NCBI RefSeq assembly: GCF_006345805.1
Contig: NW_021824914.1
Location: 1-22,964 of the forward strand
DNA from: Octopus sinensis
Taxonomy: Eukaryota
Direction: 5' to 3'
DNA: 22,964 nt
Both the position numbers and the translations under genes were made by a program. Shown here one piece after another: positions 5,666 through 21,554 of this stretch (positions within the stretch are counted from its first letter, which is position 1; each line of letters starts with the position of its first letter). A model generated the notes under the pieces. It made no database searches. It was not told where the DNA came from and saw only the letters and a list, made by a program, of their open reading frames with translations.

Positions 5666-6128
5666 GTTATTTTTCTTTTCTTTTACATGTTTCACTCATT
5701 TGACTGCGGCCATACTGGAGTACCACCTTTAGTCGAGCAAATCGACCCCAGGGTTTATTCTTTGTAAGCCTAGTATTTATTCTATCGGTCTCTATTGCCG
5801 AACCGCTAGGTTACGGGGACGTGAAGACACACCAGCATCGGTTGTCAAGCGATGTTGGGGGGGGGGAGCAAACACATACACACATGCATACATAATACAT
5901 ATATATATATGTATATGTATGTATATGTATATGTATATATATATATATATTATATATATATATATATATTATATATATACATGTATACGACGGGCTTCTT
6001 TCAGTTTCCGTCTACCAAATCCATTCACAAGGCTTTGGTCGGCCCGAGGCTATAGTAGAAGACACTTGCCCAAGGTGCCACGCCGTGGAACTGAACCCAG
6101 AACTATGTGGTTGGTAAGCAAGCTACTT

Positions 6129-6786
6129 TATTTCATTTCATTGGCCATGAAGGCCGTATACAGAGGGAGTAGCTTGCTGGCTGGACAAAAAACATTAATG
6201 AGATGAGTGATGAAAAGGATGGTATAAATGGGAGAAGGCAGAAGATGCCCGCCGATCTTCTGCTTCTCTAAAACATTGTTCCTTTTTTATTTTTTCAAAA
6301 CAAAAAACAACAAAACGAGGTATTAAACCTCTTACCCCATTTCTACAATTGCTGGACTAAATAGTCCATTACAAATTGAGGCGCAGAGCCTCTTATAAAT
6401 AATAAACATTCAGGCACTAAAGCCTCTTTATCCTTCCTCCCCGACCAGGCCGTATGCCTCCTGCAGGCAATGCTCCAGCTCCAGATCGGGGGCCCAGAAG
6501 GCGAACCTAAACTGGTCCTTCGGAAAGGAGCCCATCACCCTGAACAAACCGACGTCCGTAGTCACCTGCGGAGGCCAATCCGGGTCTTCAGTCCAAGGTA
6601 TGGTCTCCTCCCTCCGGCCTTCTAGCTTCCTCAAAAAGCTCTGAATTGCCCCTCCCTTATGAAAGAAGATAACAAAATCATCTATCGTGGCTCTGGGAGG
6701 GGGCCATAGTTTCCTCTGTCGGCACACTTCCCACCAACGAGGTTTCAGGACACGCTGGCAGTGTACCAACAACCGCCGGCAATGCC
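6129..6786 (-). mobile_element. 5'-truncated retroposed insert with a 16-bp TSD and a Tx1-like 3' terminus
   Basis: Flanked by GGTAAGCAAGCTACTT (6113-6128) and GGTAAGCAAGATACTT (6787-6802); intact SINE copies have this 16-mer once. Minus strand ends GGCC-TTCAT-GGCC-AATGAAATGAAATAAA. Confidence 0.85.
6428..6786 (-). CDS. C-terminal fragment (about 119 aa) of an unrecognised element-encoded protein
   Basis: GC-rich, non-repetitive frame open from the 5' junction (..HCRRLLVHCQRVLKPRWWEVC..) to TAA at 6428-6430; no RT, endonuclease or zf-RVT motif; the track's TTG start is not a true start. Confidence 0.55.
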
Positions 6787-6866
6787 GGTAAGCAAGATAC
6801 TTACCACACAGCCACTCTGTGGAACACCAATGTTTTACTGGAAGTAGCAGCCGATAGTTTTACGAC

Positions 6867-6928: not shown

Positions 6929-9571
6929 TGTTTCTTTATTAGCCACACAGGGCTGCACACAGATAGAACAAATTACAAGGTAGAGCTTTTCTTTTGAAGG
7001 TTTAAAAAAAAAAAAAAGGAAGGGGGAGTTTCGATCAAAAGGGATCGTAAAAGGAGAGAAAGAGGACAAAAAAAGGGGGGTTAAAAAAAAAGGGGGAGGT
7101 TAAAAAAAAAAAATTTGATCAATAGGGATCGTTATCACAGAAATGTCAATATGAAGTGTAAAGGGGAGGACAGGTGAGGTTTACCCGTGGAAAGAAAAGC
7201 CTACGGAAAAGACCACGGTAACCTCGGTCAATGGAGTCACATGTTATATTTCTTTTTTTTTTTTTTTTTTCACGAATAAGCAACTCTCTGTTTTCAATTT
7301 CTGGGTTCATAGGATCATGCTCAAGGTGGCTTCGTCATTCATACGTGCCATTCTTGCTACATTCACCCATCTTTTTTTTAAACATTCGCTAGACAAAACT
7401 TGCCTCGCTACTCTCACTTTCCTTTTCAAGTGGTACTTGAAGAAGTTGATGAGAGATTGACCAGAGAGGAAAGTGTTTGTCTCCAATCCTTTCAGACGCG
7501 TCCACCAGATACATTCTTTCGCCATAGCCACAAGGATGATGAAAATAGCTCTTCCTTCCCGTTTGAAGGAAGGAGGCGTGACAATATTGACGATAGACTC
7601 AGCTGATAAACCGACTCGTCCCACACGTGACAGCAGTTGTTAGACATAAACCCACAGGTCGGAAATTGTTGGACACTGCACGAGTGCGTGCAGAACGGTT
7701 TCGTCGCTCTGACCGCATCTCGGGCAGGTCGGCCCCGTGTTTCTCGAGCCGTGTCTGTAGAGCTTATCCCGAACGGGTAGCGCTTCTCGGTAGCACTGCC
7801 AGGCCAGGGATCTCTGGAAGTTGTCCATGGGCCCTGGCCCGAAAGTCGTCCCTGAACAGGGGGTCAGGTACTCCTCGTCGACGTACAGGTTCGCCCCGAG
7901 CTCGTCGTCGTACCTCCCACCTCCCTCTCCACTAAACCCTATAGAATGCTTTGGTTGTGTTGAAGTCACGCAAGGTCGACCCAGGACGGCAGAGTTGCTT
8001 GAGAGCAACGCGACACTCGCGGTGCCATTCGCCCTTCCTCGGCCTCTTTTTGATCCACGACTGCAGTTCGGTCATGGAGACGAGCTGCGGGAAAGCGTGC
8101 CTCACAAACGGCGACCTCACCTGTTCACCGTCGTCTACGAAGAGCCAGAGATGTCGCAGTCTCAGCGCGTGTCTGCGCATCATCAACCACGGCATGCCCA
8201 GCCCTCCTTTTAACGGGTGTTGACAGCAAATGGATCGCCTGACCATCGGGACGCATCCTTTCCACAAGAAGCGAAAGAGAATGCGTTCTAGTTTGGTGAT
8301 GGTAGGGTCGGAACAAGGTACGACGGTCAGGCGTTAGTAGATGACGGACGCGATGTACGTTTTCGCCACCTCCGCCCGACCTTTTAGGTCCTCTCGGCCC
8401 ATTGCCGGGCGAGAGTGACCAACCTACTCGTTATCTCGTTCCAGTTCTTCTCCACTTGGAGGTCCGGACCAAACCAGACCCCGAGCAACTCAACCGGGCC
8501 GTCGGTCCAGCGTCCCACGACGGAGGCGCTGGTGGACGGCATGGGCTTTTCTCTCCAGGTGCCTAGTCGCAAGCCCACTGACTTTTCCCGGTTGATTTTC
8601 GCTCCTGTCACCCTTCGTAGTTTTTCAGTGTCTCGCCGACCTGCTCGATGTGCTCGTGGCTAGACACTATGACGATGACGTCGTCCGCGTATGCAGACAC
8701 GCTCGTCCCGCATCCCAGTTCTCGCGGGATGCCTCTCAAGGTTGCCAGCTTCCGCAATAATGGCTCGAGAGTCAATACGTATAGAAGCGACGAGAGGGGG
8801 CATCCTTGACGGACCGAACGTGCGATGTCGAAGGGTCTCGATAATGTCCATTCACGCGAATAACCGAACGGATGCCTCTGTACAAAGCGGCTATCCAGCC
8901 GCGGAAGACGGGACGAAGCCAGCCGCTCCGAGGACCGCCTCCAAGTATCGATGGTCCACCCTATCGAAAGCTTTCGATTGATCCAAATTGATCAGCGCCC
9001 CACCCATGCCAGGTTCGTTAACTACCCTGTCTATGATGTAGCGCATCAGGTGGAGGTTGTCATGGATGGTCCGGCCTGGCACGGCCATGTTTGCGCCTTG
9101 TCGACCAGTTTTCTCGATGACAAGCGCCAACCTCTTGGCTAGCACCTTGGCCAAAATTTTCTTTCTGCATTAAGCAGAGTGATGGCCTAAAGTTATCTAT
9201 TACATTTCCCTTGTTTAGATCTTTCTTCAGCAGTGTTACAGCTCCTCGGCTCACAAAACCAGGAATGCTCCCGTTTTGCTGCCAGTTGCTGTACACTGCC
9301 GCCAAGAGATCTCCAAACAAGTCTGGCATACAATTGTAAAGCTCGTAGGGTAGACCATCCAAACCCGGTGATTTGTCCCTCGAGCATTCTGCCATCGCTT
9401 CCTGCACTTCCGCCGCCGTGATGGCACCTTCGCAGCACCCTGCCTTTCTTGTCGAGAGTCGTGGTAGGCTATGTAGGTAGGCACTGAAGTCCACCTACGT
9501 TCTTGCCCTCCACTCGTTCCGAACAGTCGGGCAAAATGCTGCTGAAAGGCCTCACACATTTTACTTGGCTC
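6929..9571 (-). mobile_element. Tx1-like (L1 superfamily) non-LTR retrotransposon, copy 1, 5'-truncated
   Basis: RT motifs KSPGLDGLPYELY, LDQSKAFDRVDHRYL, RQGCPLS and YADD (8680-8691), then C-terminal CPRC..ETVLHALVQC (zf-RVT-type), a U-rich 3' UTR and AATAAA; no endonuclease or ORF1. Confidence 0.9.
7307..9571 (-). pseudogene. Frameshifted ORF2 (reverse transcriptase plus zf-RVT) of Tx1-like copy 1
   Basis: Coding similarity is split over minus-strand ORFs 9251-9559, 9060-9494, 8891-9154, 8384-8611, 7932-8267, 7640-8008 and 7307-7624. Confidence 0.9.
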
Positions 9572-12412: not shown

Positions 12413-12768
12413 CTCTTTTACTCTTTTATTCTTGTAAGCCGGGACTATTCTTTGTAAGCCCAGTACTTATTCTATCGGTCTATTTTTGCCGAATCGCTAA
12501 GTGACGGGGACATAAACACACAAGCATCGGTTGTCAAGCAATGCTAGGGGGACAAACACAAACACACAAACACACACACATACATATATATATATACATA
12601 TATACGACGGACTTCTTTCAGTTTCCGTCTACCAAATCCACTCACAAGGCTTTGGTCGGCCCGAGGCTATAGTAGAAGACACTTGCCCAAGGTGCCACGC
12701 AGTGGGACTGAACCCGGAACCATGTGGTTGGTAAACAAGCTACTTACCCCACAGCCACTCCTGCGCCT
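12412..12768 (-). mobile_element. tRNA-derived SINE, family A (intact head, tail partly deleted)
   Basis: Head GGCGCAGGAGTGGCTGTG.GGTAAGTAGCTTG on the minus strand; matches the other copies. Confidence 0.9.
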
Positions 12769-14937: not shown

Positions 14938-15029
14938 TATATGTTCATTATACATATGTATGTAAGCACACATGCTGATTCTGTCACGAACACATAAATA
15001 CATAAATATGCAACGCAAATAGAGATAGC

Positions 15030-15071
<42 letters not shown>

Positions 15072-15769
15072 AGAGGTGGGGAAAGACTGAAAGAGTGATT
15101 ATGTGAAAAAAAGAGAGATGAGTAGCCAGAGAGGGGGAAACAAAAATGTGTGGCGGGAGAGTCGACATCGGTCGATATCGAGTTTAACCTGGTGGAACCC
15201 ATAAAACTTATTAAAACTCAGCTGAAGCATATCTCATATCTCATCAATGTTAATCCATGATGTCAGCCATCTTGGAACCGATCATTATAGAATCGCCTAT
15301 CCCTCCATACTCCTACTCCTCCGCAACACACGCATTGGCACCCTATCCCTGCGATTATTCACCATATTAACTACCACATACAACTATCCTATTATTCAAC
15401 TTCCGGTAACAATCAAAAACATATAGACAGATGGCGTGTAATGTTAACAGGTTCAGTAGTGATATTACTGGCTTCTCTTGCTTTACGGAGACTCTCGTTA
15501 CGGAATCTGCACTTACGGAAATGTTATGTGCGATCACACGTTTCGGAATTCGGTCAGTGATCCTATCCATAGAAAAATTAACAATTTTAAAAACTGAATT
15601 TATGATAGATATATAGGGTGTAGTGAATAAACTGTCGTATAAATTACGCAAAAATGAAAATAACGCTGACATCTCATTTTAACTGATATATTTACCAAAA
15701 TTACACAAAAATATCTTGAAATACTAACGAGTAAATTTTTCAATAAAATCGCCTTTGGCTTTAATCACT

Positions 15770-16068
15770 GTCTCCAGATAATTGATTTTACAGTCCCAAA
15801 TGAAGAAAAAATCAATATGAGAGGTACAGAAAAAATATCAAAGTGCCAGGACCTAGCCATTGAATTACAGAGACTATGGAAAGTGCGGGTAAAATGTATC
15901 CCAGTAGTTATAGGTGCATTAGGGACTGTCCCTAAAGATTTGAAGAAATGGATAAAGGAAATAGGCATAAGACCCAGTTTTGTACAGCTCCAGAAAACAG
16001 TGTTATAAGGGATAGCTAGGATACTTAGAAGGATTTTGGCATCTAAGGTTACTTGTTGTAGTCCGATG
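15770..16068 (+). mobile_element. R4/Dong-like LINE 3' fragment (C-terminus of the restriction-like endonuclease)
   Basis: IIDFTVP..EKISKCQDLAIELQRLW..IPVVIGALG..LQKTVL*GIARILRRIL is the typical C-terminus of RLE-type R4-clade ORFs; in-frame stop present. Confidence 0.85.
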
Positions 16069-16593
16069 TTAGCTTCTGATTTTAACTGATTGGAAGTATT
16101 ATCATGTACATTGTTTTGTCTTGGTATAAAATATGGGCTACAGCAAATATTCTGTTCAGTACCATGGAATTTCTTGTCCATTGTTTGACCGTAACCAGTT
16201 GAGCATGTCCCTTAGTGGCTGACGATGTGTGCATCTCTGACCACGAGCAGAAGTAGTGGGGGAGCATCATAGCCGTGTGCTGAGAGGAATTCTTTGGGGG
16301 TTGGATAATTTACTTCTGGCAAGGTGGGTGTTTCGTTCAACATCCTTAAACACCCTTTATTCAGGGACCTTTAGAGCGGAATGGGTTACTTGACCAGAAG
16401 AAAATTCTAACTGGTCCCCCAGCTGCAAGGTCATGCGCTGTGCATTTTTATATGAGATCACCATGTCGTGCACACATGGTTGTGATGCATGTGCCTAGTG
16501 TACCCTTATCAGACGGGTAGTCATGATGGGTATACTGGGCTTCGTATATTTTACCCCAGTGTCACTTCGATGGCATGCACTGCTCTCTCGTTC
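16069..16593 (+). mobile_element. Long 3' UTR of the Dong-like fragment, or a separate non-autonomous element ending at (AAT)n
   Basis: Non-coding complex sequence running from the RLE fragment to the (AAT)n tract, with several stems near its 3' end. Confidence 0.5.
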
Positions 16594-16632
16594 AATAATA
16601 ATAATAATAATAATAACAACAACAACAACAAC

Positions 16633-16712: not shown

Positions 16713-18176
16713 TTGAAACTATGTGAGAAGGATGAGACACAAGTGAGTTCCTTGGTGAATACGGACCACTGTTTTAGTACTGATATTGGAATGGAGTTTG
16801 GACTCAAGTAGTGCAGAATAATCTATTTAAAAAGAGGAAAGGTACAGTCCCAAGTAGGAATAGAATTACCGAATAGAGACTTGATTAAACAAATTGAAAC
16901 AGAAGGCTACAAATACCTTGGTGTACTAGAGTTCAATGTGATAATGGGAAAAGAAATGAAAGATCAACTGAGGGTGGAACATTTCTGAAGACTAAGGTTG
17001 GCATTGCACTCAAAATTGACTGGACGGAATAAAATCCAAGCAGTTAATATGTGGGCGATAGCATCACTTCGGTATGGAGCAGGAATTATAAAATGACAAA
17101 AGGGAGAATTATGAAAAGGGATACCAAGACTAGAAAAATATTGATAGTACACGGAGCCTTCCACCCTAAGAGTCATACCGATAGGCTGTACTTGTCCAAG
17201 AGAAAGGGTGGAAAAAGTCTGATCAGTTGCCAGGATTGTATCGAAGCAGAAGTAAACAGCTCAGGGTGGTATATAAAAAAACGCCGTGGAACCATTGTTG
17301 AAATATACAAAGCAGGCCGGCGTCATCAAAACTGAAAATTGTGTAATGAAAGAAAAATTTAAACAAGAAATGAACAGCAGAAAAAAAAAAAAAAATGTAC
17401 GGTCAGTTTGCAAGAGATGTGAACGCGAAGACAAATATAGAAGACCGGATGAGGAGGAGTGACCTGAAAATAGAGACAGAAGCACTCATTTGCGCACCTC
17501 AAGAACAAGCGTTAAGAACCAACTATGTTAAGTGCAAAATAGACAACACTACCGACAGCGACAAATGCAGAATTAGGTGAGAGGAGTGAAACGGTATGGC
17601 ACATCGTTAGCGAATACCCGAAATTGGTGCAAGTCGAATACAATAGACGCCATGACAATGTGGCAAGAATGATCCATTGGGAGCTCTGTGGAAATCAGGG
17701 CCAACAAAGAGCAAATACATGGTATGAACAAACCCCAGAAGGATTCAACGAAAATGAGAGCTGCAAAATCCTGTGGGATGCAACAATCCAGCGCAATCAC
17801 ATGACCAGATATCGAAAACCGGATATTGCTATAGTGAATAAGAAAGAAAGAAAAAATACCATGCTCCAGTGATAACAGGATCAATATGAAAGAAGAAAAA
17901 CTAAACAACCAGGACGAGTTAAAGGGGGAAATACGAAGAGTTGACGTAATACCAATAGTAATTTGTGCACTTGAACTACCAACATGGCTAAAAAAAGATT
18001 ATGGCAAGTGTTGAAGTAGAAGACCTTCAAAATTCAGCATTGCTTGGAACTGCAAGAATTCTTTACAGGGTTTTTAAAGCATAACCAGTAAACAAGTGTC
18101 CCCTTAGTGCTGCTGGCTGTAGACAGTTGACACTTTCCATCATACCCAACAAAATAAGCCGTGAGTTTTCATCAAA
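16713..18176 (+). mobile_element. R4/Dong-like non-LTR retrotransposon, 5'-truncated and degenerate
   Basis: Starts just after the RT catalytic DD (LKL..DIGMEFGLK..YKYLG..SKLTGRNKIQAVN), then ETEALICAPQEQALRTNY, a zinc-knuckle remnant, RRHDNVARMIHWELC, KILWD..RKPDI (RLE) and LQNSALLGTARIL; many stops and frameshifts. Confidence 0.9.
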
Positions 18177-18382
18177 CCTTTGTACTAAAGGCACAAGCCC
18201 TGAATTTGGGGGGAAGAGGACTAGTAGATTACATTGAAGCCAGTGTTTCACTGGCGCTTACTTTATCGACCCCGAAAGGATGGAAGGTAAAGGCGATTTA
18301 GGCGGAACTTGAACGCAGAACGTAAAGACAGACGAAATGCCGCTAAGCATTTTGTCCGGCGTACTAACAATTCTGCCAGCTC
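18177..18382 (-). mobile_element. tRNA-derived SINE, family C (Deu/Nin-like central domain)
   Basis: Minus strand: GTGAGCTGGCAGAATTGTTAG (A-box-like), GTTCAAGTTCC (B-box-like), CCTTCCATCCTTTCGGGGTCGATAAAGTAAG resembling the Deu/Nin domain; second copy at 18805-19017. Confidence 0.8.
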
Positions 18383-18389
18383 ACAGATA

Positions 18390-18458
18390 AAAATAAATAT
18401 AATAAAAATAATAATAATAATAATATAATGAATAATAATATAATGATGATGATGATGA

Positions 18459-19777: not shown

Positions 19778-19837
19778 AAGCTCTACTTTGTATTTTGTCC
19801 CCTCGGTGTTCAGCCCTGTGTGGCTAATAAAGATACA
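19778..19837 (+). mobile_element. Tx1-like element copy 3, terminal ~60 bp only
   Basis: AAGCTCTACTTTGTATTTTGTCC..CAGCCCTGTGTGGCTAATAAAGATACA matches the 3' ends of copies 1 and 2; (TATC)n on both sides. Confidence 0.85.
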
Positions 19838-20399: not shown

Positions 20400-21554
20400 A
20401 ATGGGCCGAGAGGAAACTGTCCCTAAAAGGTCGGGCGGAGGTGGTGAACACGTACATCGCGTCCGTCATCTACTACCGCCTGACCGTCGTGCCTTGTCCC
20501 AACCCTACCATCACCAAACTAGAACGCATTCTCTTTCGCTTCTTGTGGAAAGGATGCGTCCCGATGGTCAGGCGAACCTGTACGTCGATGAGGAGTACCT
20601 GACCCGCCTGTTCGGGACGACTTTCGGGCCAGGGCCCATGGACAACTTCCAGAGATCCCTGGCCTGGCAGTGCTACCGAGAAGCGCTACCCGTTCGGGAT
20701 AAGCTCTGCAGACACGGCTCGAGAAACACGGGGCCGACCTGCCCGAGATGCGGTCAGAGCGACAAAACCGTTCTGCACGCACTCGTGCAGTGTCCAACCA
20801 TTTCCGACCTGTGGGCTTATGTCGAACAACTGCTGTCACGTGTGGAACGAGTTGGTTTATCAGCTGAGTCTATCGTCAATATTGTCACGCCTCCTTCCTT
20901 CAAACGGGAAGGAAGAGCTATTTTCATCATCCTTGTGGCTATGGCGAAAGAATGTATCTGGTGGACGCGTCTGAAAGGATTGGAGACAAACACTTTCCTC
21001 TCTGGTCAATCTCTCATCAACTTCTTCAAGTACCACTTGAAAAAGAAAGTGAGAGTAGAGAGGCAAGTTTTGTCTAGTGAATGTTTTAAAAAAAGATGGG
21101 TGAATGTGGCAAGGATGGCACGTATGAATGACGAAGCCACCTTGAGCATAATCCTATGAACCCAGAAATTGAAAACAGAGGGTTACCCACTTGCAAACAA
21201 ATGTGGTAACATATAACAATATTGACCGAGATTACCGTGGTTTTTTTCGTAGGCTTTTCTTCCCACGGATAAACCTTATCTGCTTCCAACCTTTACACCG
21301 TTCATCATGACACTGTGATACACGATCCCTATTGATCGTTTTTTTTCCTCTTCCCCTTTTTTCCTCTTTTTTCTTCTTTTTCTCTTTTTTCTTTTCTTTT
21401 GTTTCGTTTCCTTTTTTTCTTTTTTTTCCTTTTTCCCTTTTACGATCACTTTTGATCGAAAACCTACGCCACTTTTTTTTCATCCCCCAAAAGAAAAGCT
21501 CTACCTTGTAATTTGTCCCATCTGTGTGCAGCCCTGTGTGGCCAATAAAGAAAC

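What the first reader, a model, noticed from the sequence alone, without database searches (positions are those of the whole stretch)
6113..6200. Retroelement 3' tail carries a perfect match to its own target site: candidate guide-like targeting
Seen: AGTAGCTTGCT (6168-6178, inside the insert) is the exact reverse complement of AGCAAGCTACT (6117-6127, inside the TSD). Aligned to the Tx1 tails in this window (TGTAWTTTGTCC-CMTCKGTGT.CAGCC..TGGCYAATAAA), the insert reads TGTTTTTTGTCC-[AGCCAGCAAGCTACTC]-CCTCTGTATACGGCC..TGGCCAATGAAA. The match is thus a discrete 16-nt extra block (6167-6182) in an otherwise shared tail. Established: TPRT primes from the nicked strand, here the plus strand ending ..AGCAAGCTACTT-3', and several Tx1 families are target-specific through their endonuclease. 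Inference: the RNA block has the primer-strand sequence, so it could pair with the opposite DNA strand and free the primer end, pair with SINE RNA, or fold onto read-through flank. Any of these would be RNA-assisted targeting of a SINE. Caveats: one copy only; the (TATC)n-associated Tx1 tail has no analogous GATA block; chance or a local template switch remain possible.
Basis: partly seen in the sequence, partly recalled or inferred. Interest (0 to 1): 0.85.

Follow-up and report, generated by a model that had tools for sequence, protein, structure and literature searches.

The report
LINE tail mirrors its target site
Many retrotransposon families in this animal genome insert at one spot of an abundant SINE and carry in their 3' tail a short antisense copy of that spot that changes in step with the target's two sequence variants, so their RNA likely base-pairs with target sequence (most likely its own read-through end, possibly the DNA itself), a link not found in the papers searched.

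Summary
The match is real and family-wide. The 658-nt insert (6129-6786, minus strand, 16-nt TSD) is the 3' part of a ~2-kb ORF1-only, RT-less Tx1-like element. At least 1,005 Tx1-like 3' junctions sit at this same site of a tRNA-like SINE. The SINE has two variants, AAGTAGC and AAGAAGC, and the tail motif follows them. In 140 loci picked by flank alone, AGCTAC went with T-sites 46:4 and AGCTTC with A-sites 29:0; 61 had neither exact motif. The switch recurs in several lineages (too few independent pairs for significance) and at two tail positions. Private flank mutations are not mirrored in the block (0 of 10). So the block is inherited and most likely selected to pair with target sequence. 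It is not an obligatory guide: the conserved core is 5-7 nt, blockless families hit the same site, and mismatched insertions exist. Best reading: AAUAAA lies at the junction, so the RNA would run into the SINE and the block closes a stem over that read-through, which then anneals to the nicked primer strand. Pairing with top-strand DNA stays open (~25%).

The parts
6129..6786 (-). 5'-truncated insertion (658 nt) of an ORF1-only, RT-less Tx1-like retroelement
   Evidence: Bounded by TSD; 72-92% identical to the 29 other loci; longer copies hold ORF1 then 3'UTR with no ORF2; full-length example about 2.0 kb between TSDs in L045
6168..6178 (-). Antisense block AGCAAGCTACT (core GCTAC 6173-6169; covarying base at 6170 faces flank base 6125)
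6143..6155 (-). Terminal 4-bp hairpin of the 3' tail
   Evidence: 91.6% of cells paired, 29 double-sided changes, 0 of 500 shuffles as high, best of 7 registers; coordinates
6127..6132 (-). AATAAA straddling the element/target junction; no poly(A) follows
   Evidence: sequence; same in all 140 flank-sampled junctions by construction of the pattern
6113..6128 (-). Target-site duplication, 3' copy (first 16 nt of downstream SINE; predicted read-through arm)
   Evidence: predicted stem with block, -22.8 kcal/mol, z -2.95
6787..6802 (-). Target-site duplication, 5' copy (one mismatch)
6428..6785 (-). Frameshifted C-terminal remnant of ORF1 (stop at 6428-6430)
   Evidence: translation matches the ORF1 C-terminus of L045/L047
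5988..6112 (-). 3' part of the interrupted tRNA-like SINE (T variant)
   Evidence: matches intact SINE copies in the window at 12748, 22417, 1891; 27,490 exact heads in G000
6803..6817 (-). 5' head of the interrupted SINE

Best explanation
The block is an inherited antisense copy of the insertion site that changes in step with the target variant, and it likely works as the 5' arm of an RNA stem whose 3' arm is the target-derived read-through end of the element's own transcript. Shown: a radiation of autonomous (ORF1 + APE-RT) and ORF1-only Tx1-like families inserts at one site of a SINE; the tails carry GCT[A/T]C at about -45 (ORF1-only) or about -70 (autonomous); the middle base follows the SINE variant. 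Inferred steps: (1) because AAUAAA overlaps the junction, Pol II cleavage 10-30 nt downstream (general knowledge) leaves the whole TSD sequence at the RNA 3' end; (2) the block pairs with it and closes the structured tail that ORF2 binds, so a master copy whose block mismatches its own flank is penalised, which makes blocks follow the target lineage by lineage; (3) the APE endonuclease nicks the bottom strand at an AAGWAG-like motif; (4) the read-through swaps from the block to the nicked primer strand, as 3' flank does in R2Ol, which would favour sites of the master's own variant; (5) the freed block may pair briefly with the displaced top strand (strand exchange; speculative).
For: Covariation: 46:4 and 29:0 in 140 flank-picked loci; flank-blind samples 42 T-block/T-site, 0 T-block/A-site, 8 A-block/A-site, 0 A-block/T-site. 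Repeated switches: 5 on an ORF1 tree, 7 on a block-free UTR tree, 2 among ORF2 carriers; independent pairs never went the opposite way. ORF1-only lineages have no endonuclease of their own, yet switch in parallel. The predicted fold pairs block with flank (P>0.5) in 74 of 101 ORF1-type and 36 of 40 ORF2-type tails against 4 of 16 blockless tails; the matched variant folds better 68:30 and 36:2, against 8:8 for blockless. The tail is a conserved RNA structure. The block tolerates 1-3 A and bulges, and a 5-7-nt core is too short to invade duplex DNA alone (general knowledge). In R2Ol read-through flank anneals to target and raises efficiency (PMC6530143, passages).
Against: No transcript end was seen. 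Extension of the duplex beyond the shared core is no better than shuffled controls for either own end (15 better, 74 worse of 101) or target DNA (34 better, 53 worse), so cis and trans pairing are not separated. The fold result is partly built in: any complement 40-70 nt away will fold. Sign tests cannot reach 0.05 with 4 supported pairs (p 0.125), and tails seem to recombine between ORF1 lineages, which can inflate switch counts. 61 of 140 tails lack the exact motif. A-type insertions are older (flank mismatch 12.6% vs 7.1%), so time is a confounder. RNAalifold on a MAFFT alignment found no consensus structure because the block misaligned.
Confidence: 0.5

Rival explanations
1. Guide-like role: the block pairs with the top (non-primer) DNA strand of the target, helps open the site and frees the primer end, so the RNA itself helps choose the SINE variant.
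For: Each insertion is an independent event and T-block elements avoid A-sites: 0 of 42 against a 8-10% background share (P 0.01-0.03). TSD-confirmed off-target sites of T-type copies start AAGTAG, AGTAG, AAGTTAG, AACTATG, AACTAGG, AAGTAGC, and the one A-type case starts AAGAAG. T-block copies use the rare T..C SINE hybrid (5 loci) but seldom the commoner A..C type, so position 4, the base facing the block, is the one read. In R2 the target is melted over 11 bp and one 3'UTR base contacts the top strand (PMC10499050, passages).
Against: The same data follow from endonuclease preference or from read-through/primer annealing. Blockless subfamilies hit the same site. One T-block subfamily occurs in both variants. 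An A-block copy sits in a T-site (L308). No extension into upstream target beyond chance. GATA- and SINE-2-targeting relatives are site-specific with no such block (0 of 31 tails).
Confidence: 0.22
2. The motif is a protein-binding tag: ORF2 recognises GCUAC or GCUUC, and ORF1-only elements copied the tag of whichever partner was active, so the match to the target is a relic of one old inverted capture plus timing.
For: A-type insertions are older than T-type. The GATA family keeps AAGCTCTAC at the homologous place with no matching flank. Only 2 weakly supported switches among ORF2 carriers.
Against: It needs the tag to change to exactly the complement of the new target base, twice in autonomous lineages, and to work at two positions about 25 nt apart.
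Confidence: 0.12
3. The block pairs in trans with SINE RNA (same sense as the top strand), tethering the particle to transcribed SINE loci or co-packaging SINE RNA.
For: The element is co-oriented with the SINE in the loci read, so the block is antisense to SINE RNA; the SINE has 27,490 exact heads.
Against: A 5-10-nt trans duplex would lose to the cis arm 40-70 nt away; no expression data.
Confidence: 0.08
4. No function: quasi-palindrome template switching keeps rewriting the block from the flank.
For: Block and flank form a short-spaced inverted repeat; fold-back products exist at this site (L155/L156).
Against: 0 of 10 private flank mutations are mirrored in the block (one further row, L271, dropped as a false junction in a GATA locus). 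The inverted repeat stays bulged and imperfect in most families.
Confidence: 0.08

Closest known systems
Target-specific Tx1 clade LINEs (Tx1L, Keno/U2, Kibi, Koshi, Tx1-Mar; Mutsu/5S, Dewa/tRNA spacer)
   Same: Site-specific insertion into a multicopy sequence or another transposon, tandem arrays at the site, APE-RT architecture. Targets as listed in PMC4494074 and PMC3706591 (passages).
   Different: PMC4494074 attributes target choice mainly to the endonuclease; the passages read describe no antisense 3'UTR motif or tail/target covariation. Target here is the head of a SINE.
R2 / R1Bm 3' homology (read-through flank annealing to the primer strand)
   Same: Target-derived sequence at the RNA 3' end assists priming (PMC6530143, PMC10499050, passages; R1Bm only as cited there, the original paper was not held). 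Inferred here from AATAAA at the junction.
   Different: Those are sense-strand extensions outside the element. Here there is in addition an element-encoded antisense copy that covaries with the target.
SART1 internal telomere-like GGUU/AGG motifs
   Same: Short target-related motifs inside the 3'UTR (PMC7265360, passages).
   Different: SART1 motifs are sense and anneal to the primer strand, causing internal starts; this block has the primer's own sequence and cannot.
Dada DNA transposons
   Same: Small-RNA-gene targets; 7-9-bp subterminal inverted repeats also found in the target, proposed to aid recognition (PMC3706591, passages).
   Different: DDE DNA transposons, DNA-level motif; no RNA intermediate.
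HAL1, HeT-A, Ag-Sponge (ORF1-only non-autonomous LINEs)
   Same: ORF1 plus 3'UTR, no RT (PMC5786205, passage; here).
   Different: That passage lists L1-, Jockey- and CR1-derived cases, not Tx1-derived or site-specific ones.
IS110 bridge RNA and other RNA-guided mobile elements (recalled, no call)
   Same: Element RNA holds sequence that covaries with the target.
   Different: Guides there are longer and obligatory; here the core is 5-7 nt, dispensable in some subfamilies, and DNA pairing is untested.

Membership tests
Tx1 clade non-LTR retrotransposon (autonomous partner, L058 type) | ORF2 with APE endonuclease, RT and C-terminal zinc finger | tested here: met
   L058: Exo_endo_phos E 1e-4 (just under Pfam's cut-off), RVT_1 E 1e-16; zf-RVT E 3e-7 in the window's related GATA-type ORF2; homologues of about 1150 aa carry all three
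Tx1 clade non-LTR retrotransposon (autonomous partner, L058 type) | ORF1 with CCHC knuckle | tested here: inconclusive
   zf-CCHC E 0.066 in L058 ORF1; E 6e-6 in a related ORF1 in L045
Tx1 clade non-LTR retrotransposon (autonomous partner, L058 type) | RT phylogeny groups with named Tx1 elements | not tested
No named Tx1 reference was on hand; none of the 120 listed homologues bears the name; PDB hits to L1 and R2 are equally weak.
Tx1 clade non-LTR retrotransposon (autonomous partner, L058 type) | Target-site preference with TSD | tested here: met
   About 25 of 30 relatives at the same SINE junction; TSD 7-20, mostly 13-17 nt, in 32 resolved loci
ORF1-only non-autonomous LINE (HAL1-like) | ORF1 directly followed by 3'UTR, no RT, bounded by TSD | tested here: met
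   L045 about 2.0 kb; L161, L236, L239 1.9 kb between TSDs
RNA-guided mobile element | Element RNA sequence covaries with target sequence | tested here: met
   One base, many lineages
RNA-guided mobile element | Guide is required for and dictates the site | tested here: not met
   Blockless subfamilies at the same site and mismatched insertions
RNA-guided mobile element | RNA pairs with target DNA; swapping it reprograms insertion | not testable with these tools
   Needs an assay; the in silico extension test was inconclusive
tRNA-derived octopus SINE (OR/OK type) | tRNA-derived head with A and B boxes | tested here: inconclusive
   Box-like motifs read by eye; ARAGORN 0 genes, no tRNA hit in Rfam; family name recalled; Ohshima and Okada 1994 seen only as a citation

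The most novel reading that the evidence does not exclude
An APE-type LINE lineage uses RNA-assisted strand exchange to pick its site: its 3' hairpin (antisense block plus read-through) swaps partners with the nicked target so that one arm holds the primer strand and the other the top strand, and a single-base change in the RNA retargets even endonuclease-less ORF1-only elements to a new SINE variant.
Probability: 0.25. Interest if true: 0.92.

Novelty: new variant of a known kind. Interest (0 to 1): 0.72.

Why it matters
Target choice in APE-type LINEs is credited to the endonuclease. Here dozens of families, most without their own endonuclease, changed one tail base each time they moved to a new variant of their target. 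That is natural compensatory evidence that the element RNA pairs with target sequence through an element-encoded antisense motif. At the least it gives a two-variant natural system in which the RNA's share in LINE site choice and 3'-end formation can be tested with single-base swaps. If the partner is DNA, it would be a rudimentary RNA guide in a eukaryotic retrotransposon, of interest for programmable gene insertion.

Tried and rejected
Single-copy accident: rejected. Flank overwritten by RNA: rejected, 5' TSD variant equals 3' flank variant in 32 of 32; an apparent exception, L263, was a separate intact SINE. RNA-added AAGTA at off-target sites: rejected where a TSD resolved, since the bases are in both copies (7 T-type loci; most other off-target loci gave no TSD). 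Own-end versus target-upstream duplex energies: biased by G/U content (the blockless control shows the same shift) and null after shuffling. RNAalifold: no structure, block misaligned. General rule for Tx1-like tails: not supported; 12 GATA-family and 19 SINE-2-family tails lack the motif (0 of 31; longest complement 4-7 nt; 1 of 20 fetched SINE-2 loci gave no tail). A possible downstream-matching motif in the blockless G subfamily: no preference (8:8). Other organisms: 80 distant metagenome loci (25-37% identity); of 29 examined 8 had a usable AATAAA and none a significant inverted match, uninformative as targets are unknown. Expression: no RNA holder listed; contigs of runs guessed to be RNA cross the junction but show neither strand nor 3' end, so no evidence either way. 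The 541 count did not exceed its reversed-pattern control (888), so it is used only as a sample of blocks. Earlier findings: none. Literature: ten searches found no description of an antisense 3'UTR motif in Tx1; Kojima and Fujiwara 2004 and Repbase reports, where it could be described, are not in the library, and no supplements were read.

Full report
OBSERVATION. Positions 6168-6178 are the exact reverse complement of 6117-6127, and the insert 6129-6786 (minus strand) is bounded by a 16-nt duplication with one mismatch. Shuffling the tail 20,000 times gave no 11-nt match to the flank and five 10-nt matches. The interrupted sequence is a SINE head, also present intact in the window. G000 is a 2.7-Gb animal genome. 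I take it to be an octopus from the recalled SINE type and from an Argonauta protein as the closest named homologue; this is inference.

WHAT THE ELEMENT IS. The insert is not an ORF2 end. Longer copies hold an ORF1 followed directly by the 3'UTR, with no RT. Complete examples between TSDs are 1.9-2.0 kb. It is an ORF1-only non-autonomous LINE, of the kind that PMC5786205 (passage) lists for L1, Jockey and CR1. An autonomous relative (ORF1, APE, RT) lies in tandem at the same site in L058, and about 25 of its 30 closest relatives share the junction. The Tx1 label fits the architecture but was not tested by phylogeny.

FAMILY. Of the 30 loci closest to the window's tail, 17 have the exact 10-nt block, 2 the 11-nt form, and 17 sit at the same SINE position (one search read by eye; the script also counts 17, differing by one locus each way). 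Genome-wide there are 670 exact junctions to the T variant of the SINE and 335 to the A variant. The SINE has 27,490 exact heads; of the first 100 listed, 91 are T..A, 7 A..C and 2 hybrids.

COVARIATION. I took 70 A-site and 70 T-site junctions from the head of the two lists, blind to the block (30 loci cut by each search plus the next 40 listed, skipping two already held and one lying inside another region). Exact AGCTTC / AGCTAC in the tail: A-sites 29 / 4 with 37 neither; T-sites 0 / 46 with 24 neither. Two of the 46 are fold-back artefacts, one of the 4 is a stray match in a blockless tail, and two loci are duplicates. Fisher's P of 1e-17 overstates the case because copies are related. In 32 of 32 loci with both TSDs the variant agrees, so the flank is true target DNA. 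Samples picked by tail instead of flank gave T-block 42 T-site / 0 A-site and A-block 8 A-site / 0 T-site. ORF2-bearing families lack the block at -45 but carry AGCT[A/T]CT at about -70, with the same covariation.

INDEPENDENCE. On a tree of ORF1 DNA (59 rows) block and flank each change at least 5 times; 4 supported independent pairs go the same way 3.7 times on average and never the opposite way. On a 3'UTR tree with the block removed (99 rows) the block changes 7 times and the flank 12, with 4 supported pairs (7 on all branches), 3.9 same and 0 opposite; its bootstrap had not settled. Among 27 ORF2 carriers there are 2 changes with weak support (7 rows skipped for low cover or insertions). 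No sign test can reach 0.05 with so few pairs (p 0.125), and tails appear to move between ORF1 lineages. I wrote predictions for 20 further loci before fetching them. T-block: 7 of 7 on-target correct, 3 off-target. A-block: 4 of 7 correct; of the misses L307 and L310 look like private mutations in T families and L308 is a real mismatch. The three copies of the ambivalent subfamily gave one A-site, one T-site and one off-target.

NOT AN ARTEFACT, NOT OBLIGATORY. None of 10 private flank mutations is mirrored in the block (an eleventh row was a false junction), so the block is inherited, not rewritten at each locus. But the conserved core is only GCT[A/T]C with variable A runs, blockless subfamilies use the same site, and two other site-specific relatives, the GATA family (7,464 tails) and a family in a second SINE (19 of 20 fetched loci readable, all at one site), have no such motif (0 of 31). 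A-type insertions are older, so the history is probably an A-type SINE followed by a T-type burst, with several lineages moving over and changing the block as they did.

MECHANISM. AATAAA (6127-6132) overlaps the junction and no poly(A) follows, so a Pol II transcript would end inside the SINE (general knowledge; no RNA end observed). The window's tail plus read-through folds into an 11-bp block-flank stem around the terminal hairpin (-22.8 kcal/mol, z -2.95). The same pairing is predicted in 74 of 101 and 36 of 40 block-type tails against 4 of 16 blockless ones. The terminal hairpin shows compensatory changes, so the tail is a selected RNA structure. A cis stem explains lineage-level tracking with occasional mismatched insertions. 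Insertion-level choice is also real: 0 of 42 T-block copies in A-sites against 8-10% background (P 0.01-0.03), and off-target TSDs keep the AAGWAG start of their own type. This can come from the endonuclease, from read-through annealing to the primer strand as in R2Ol (PMC6530143, passages), or from the block pairing with the top strand. The in silico attempt to separate these failed. I put 0.5 on the cis stem, 0.22 on DNA pairing, 0.12 on a protein tag, 0.08 on SINE RNA and 0.08 on no function.

KNOWN COMPARISONS. Tx1 target specificity is established and credited mainly to the endonuclease (PMC4494074, passages). Sense-strand 3' homology is known for R2 and SART1. Dada transposons share short motifs with their targets (PMC3706591, passages). 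A recent Octopus vulgaris repeat annotation mentions L1-Tx1 once, in a table, and has no occurrence of 'target' (PMC13282606, passages). Ten searches found no antisense, covarying 3'UTR motif; the original Tx1 target survey and Repbase entries were not searchable, and no supplements were read. All papers were seen as search listings or passages only.

VERDICT. A real, family-wide, covarying feature: a new variant of target-specific LINE biology. It is not shown to be a guide. Interest 0.72; the guide or strand-exchange reading has probability 0.25 and would deserve 0.92.

Noticed in passing
window 6929-9500 (-), about 19780-19835 (+), 20400-21552 (+): Related LINE family inserted in (TATC)n; 7,464 exact tail matches in G000; ends AATAAAGAAAC[A/T] and keeps AAGCTCTAC where SINE-targeting ORF2 families have their antisense motif, perhaps a relic of a SINE-targeting ancestor
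   Followed up: partly
L062:1-1535, L283-L302: Another site-specific Tx1-like family in a second tRNA-like SINE; its tail has a perfect 6-bp hairpin and a possible basal stem over its own end; that SINE itself ends in a Tx1-like tail, so it may be mobilised by these LINEs
   Followed up: partly
L101-L240: ORF1-only elements outnumber ORF2 carriers at the SINE site: 80 ORF1, 15 ORF2, 45 unclassified of 140
   Followed up: partly
L058, L059, L072, L076, L090, L109, L124, L130, L132, L308: Tandem insertions of different families at the same SINE site, separated by the TSD
   Followed up: no
L155/L156: Fold-back insertion: inverted copies of a short tail and SINE head at the site
   Followed up: no
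L201, L227 versus L137, L160: Same 3' tail on different ORF1 lineages, suggesting tail exchange by recombination
   Followed up: no
L103, L106, L114, L115, L117, L124, L127, L133: Blockless ORF1-only subfamilies with a distant ORF1 (about 25% identity), nearly all in A-type SINEs (15 of 16)
   Followed up: partly
window 15000-16600 and 17000-18400: Fragments of another RT-type element family (translations), not classified
   Followed up: no
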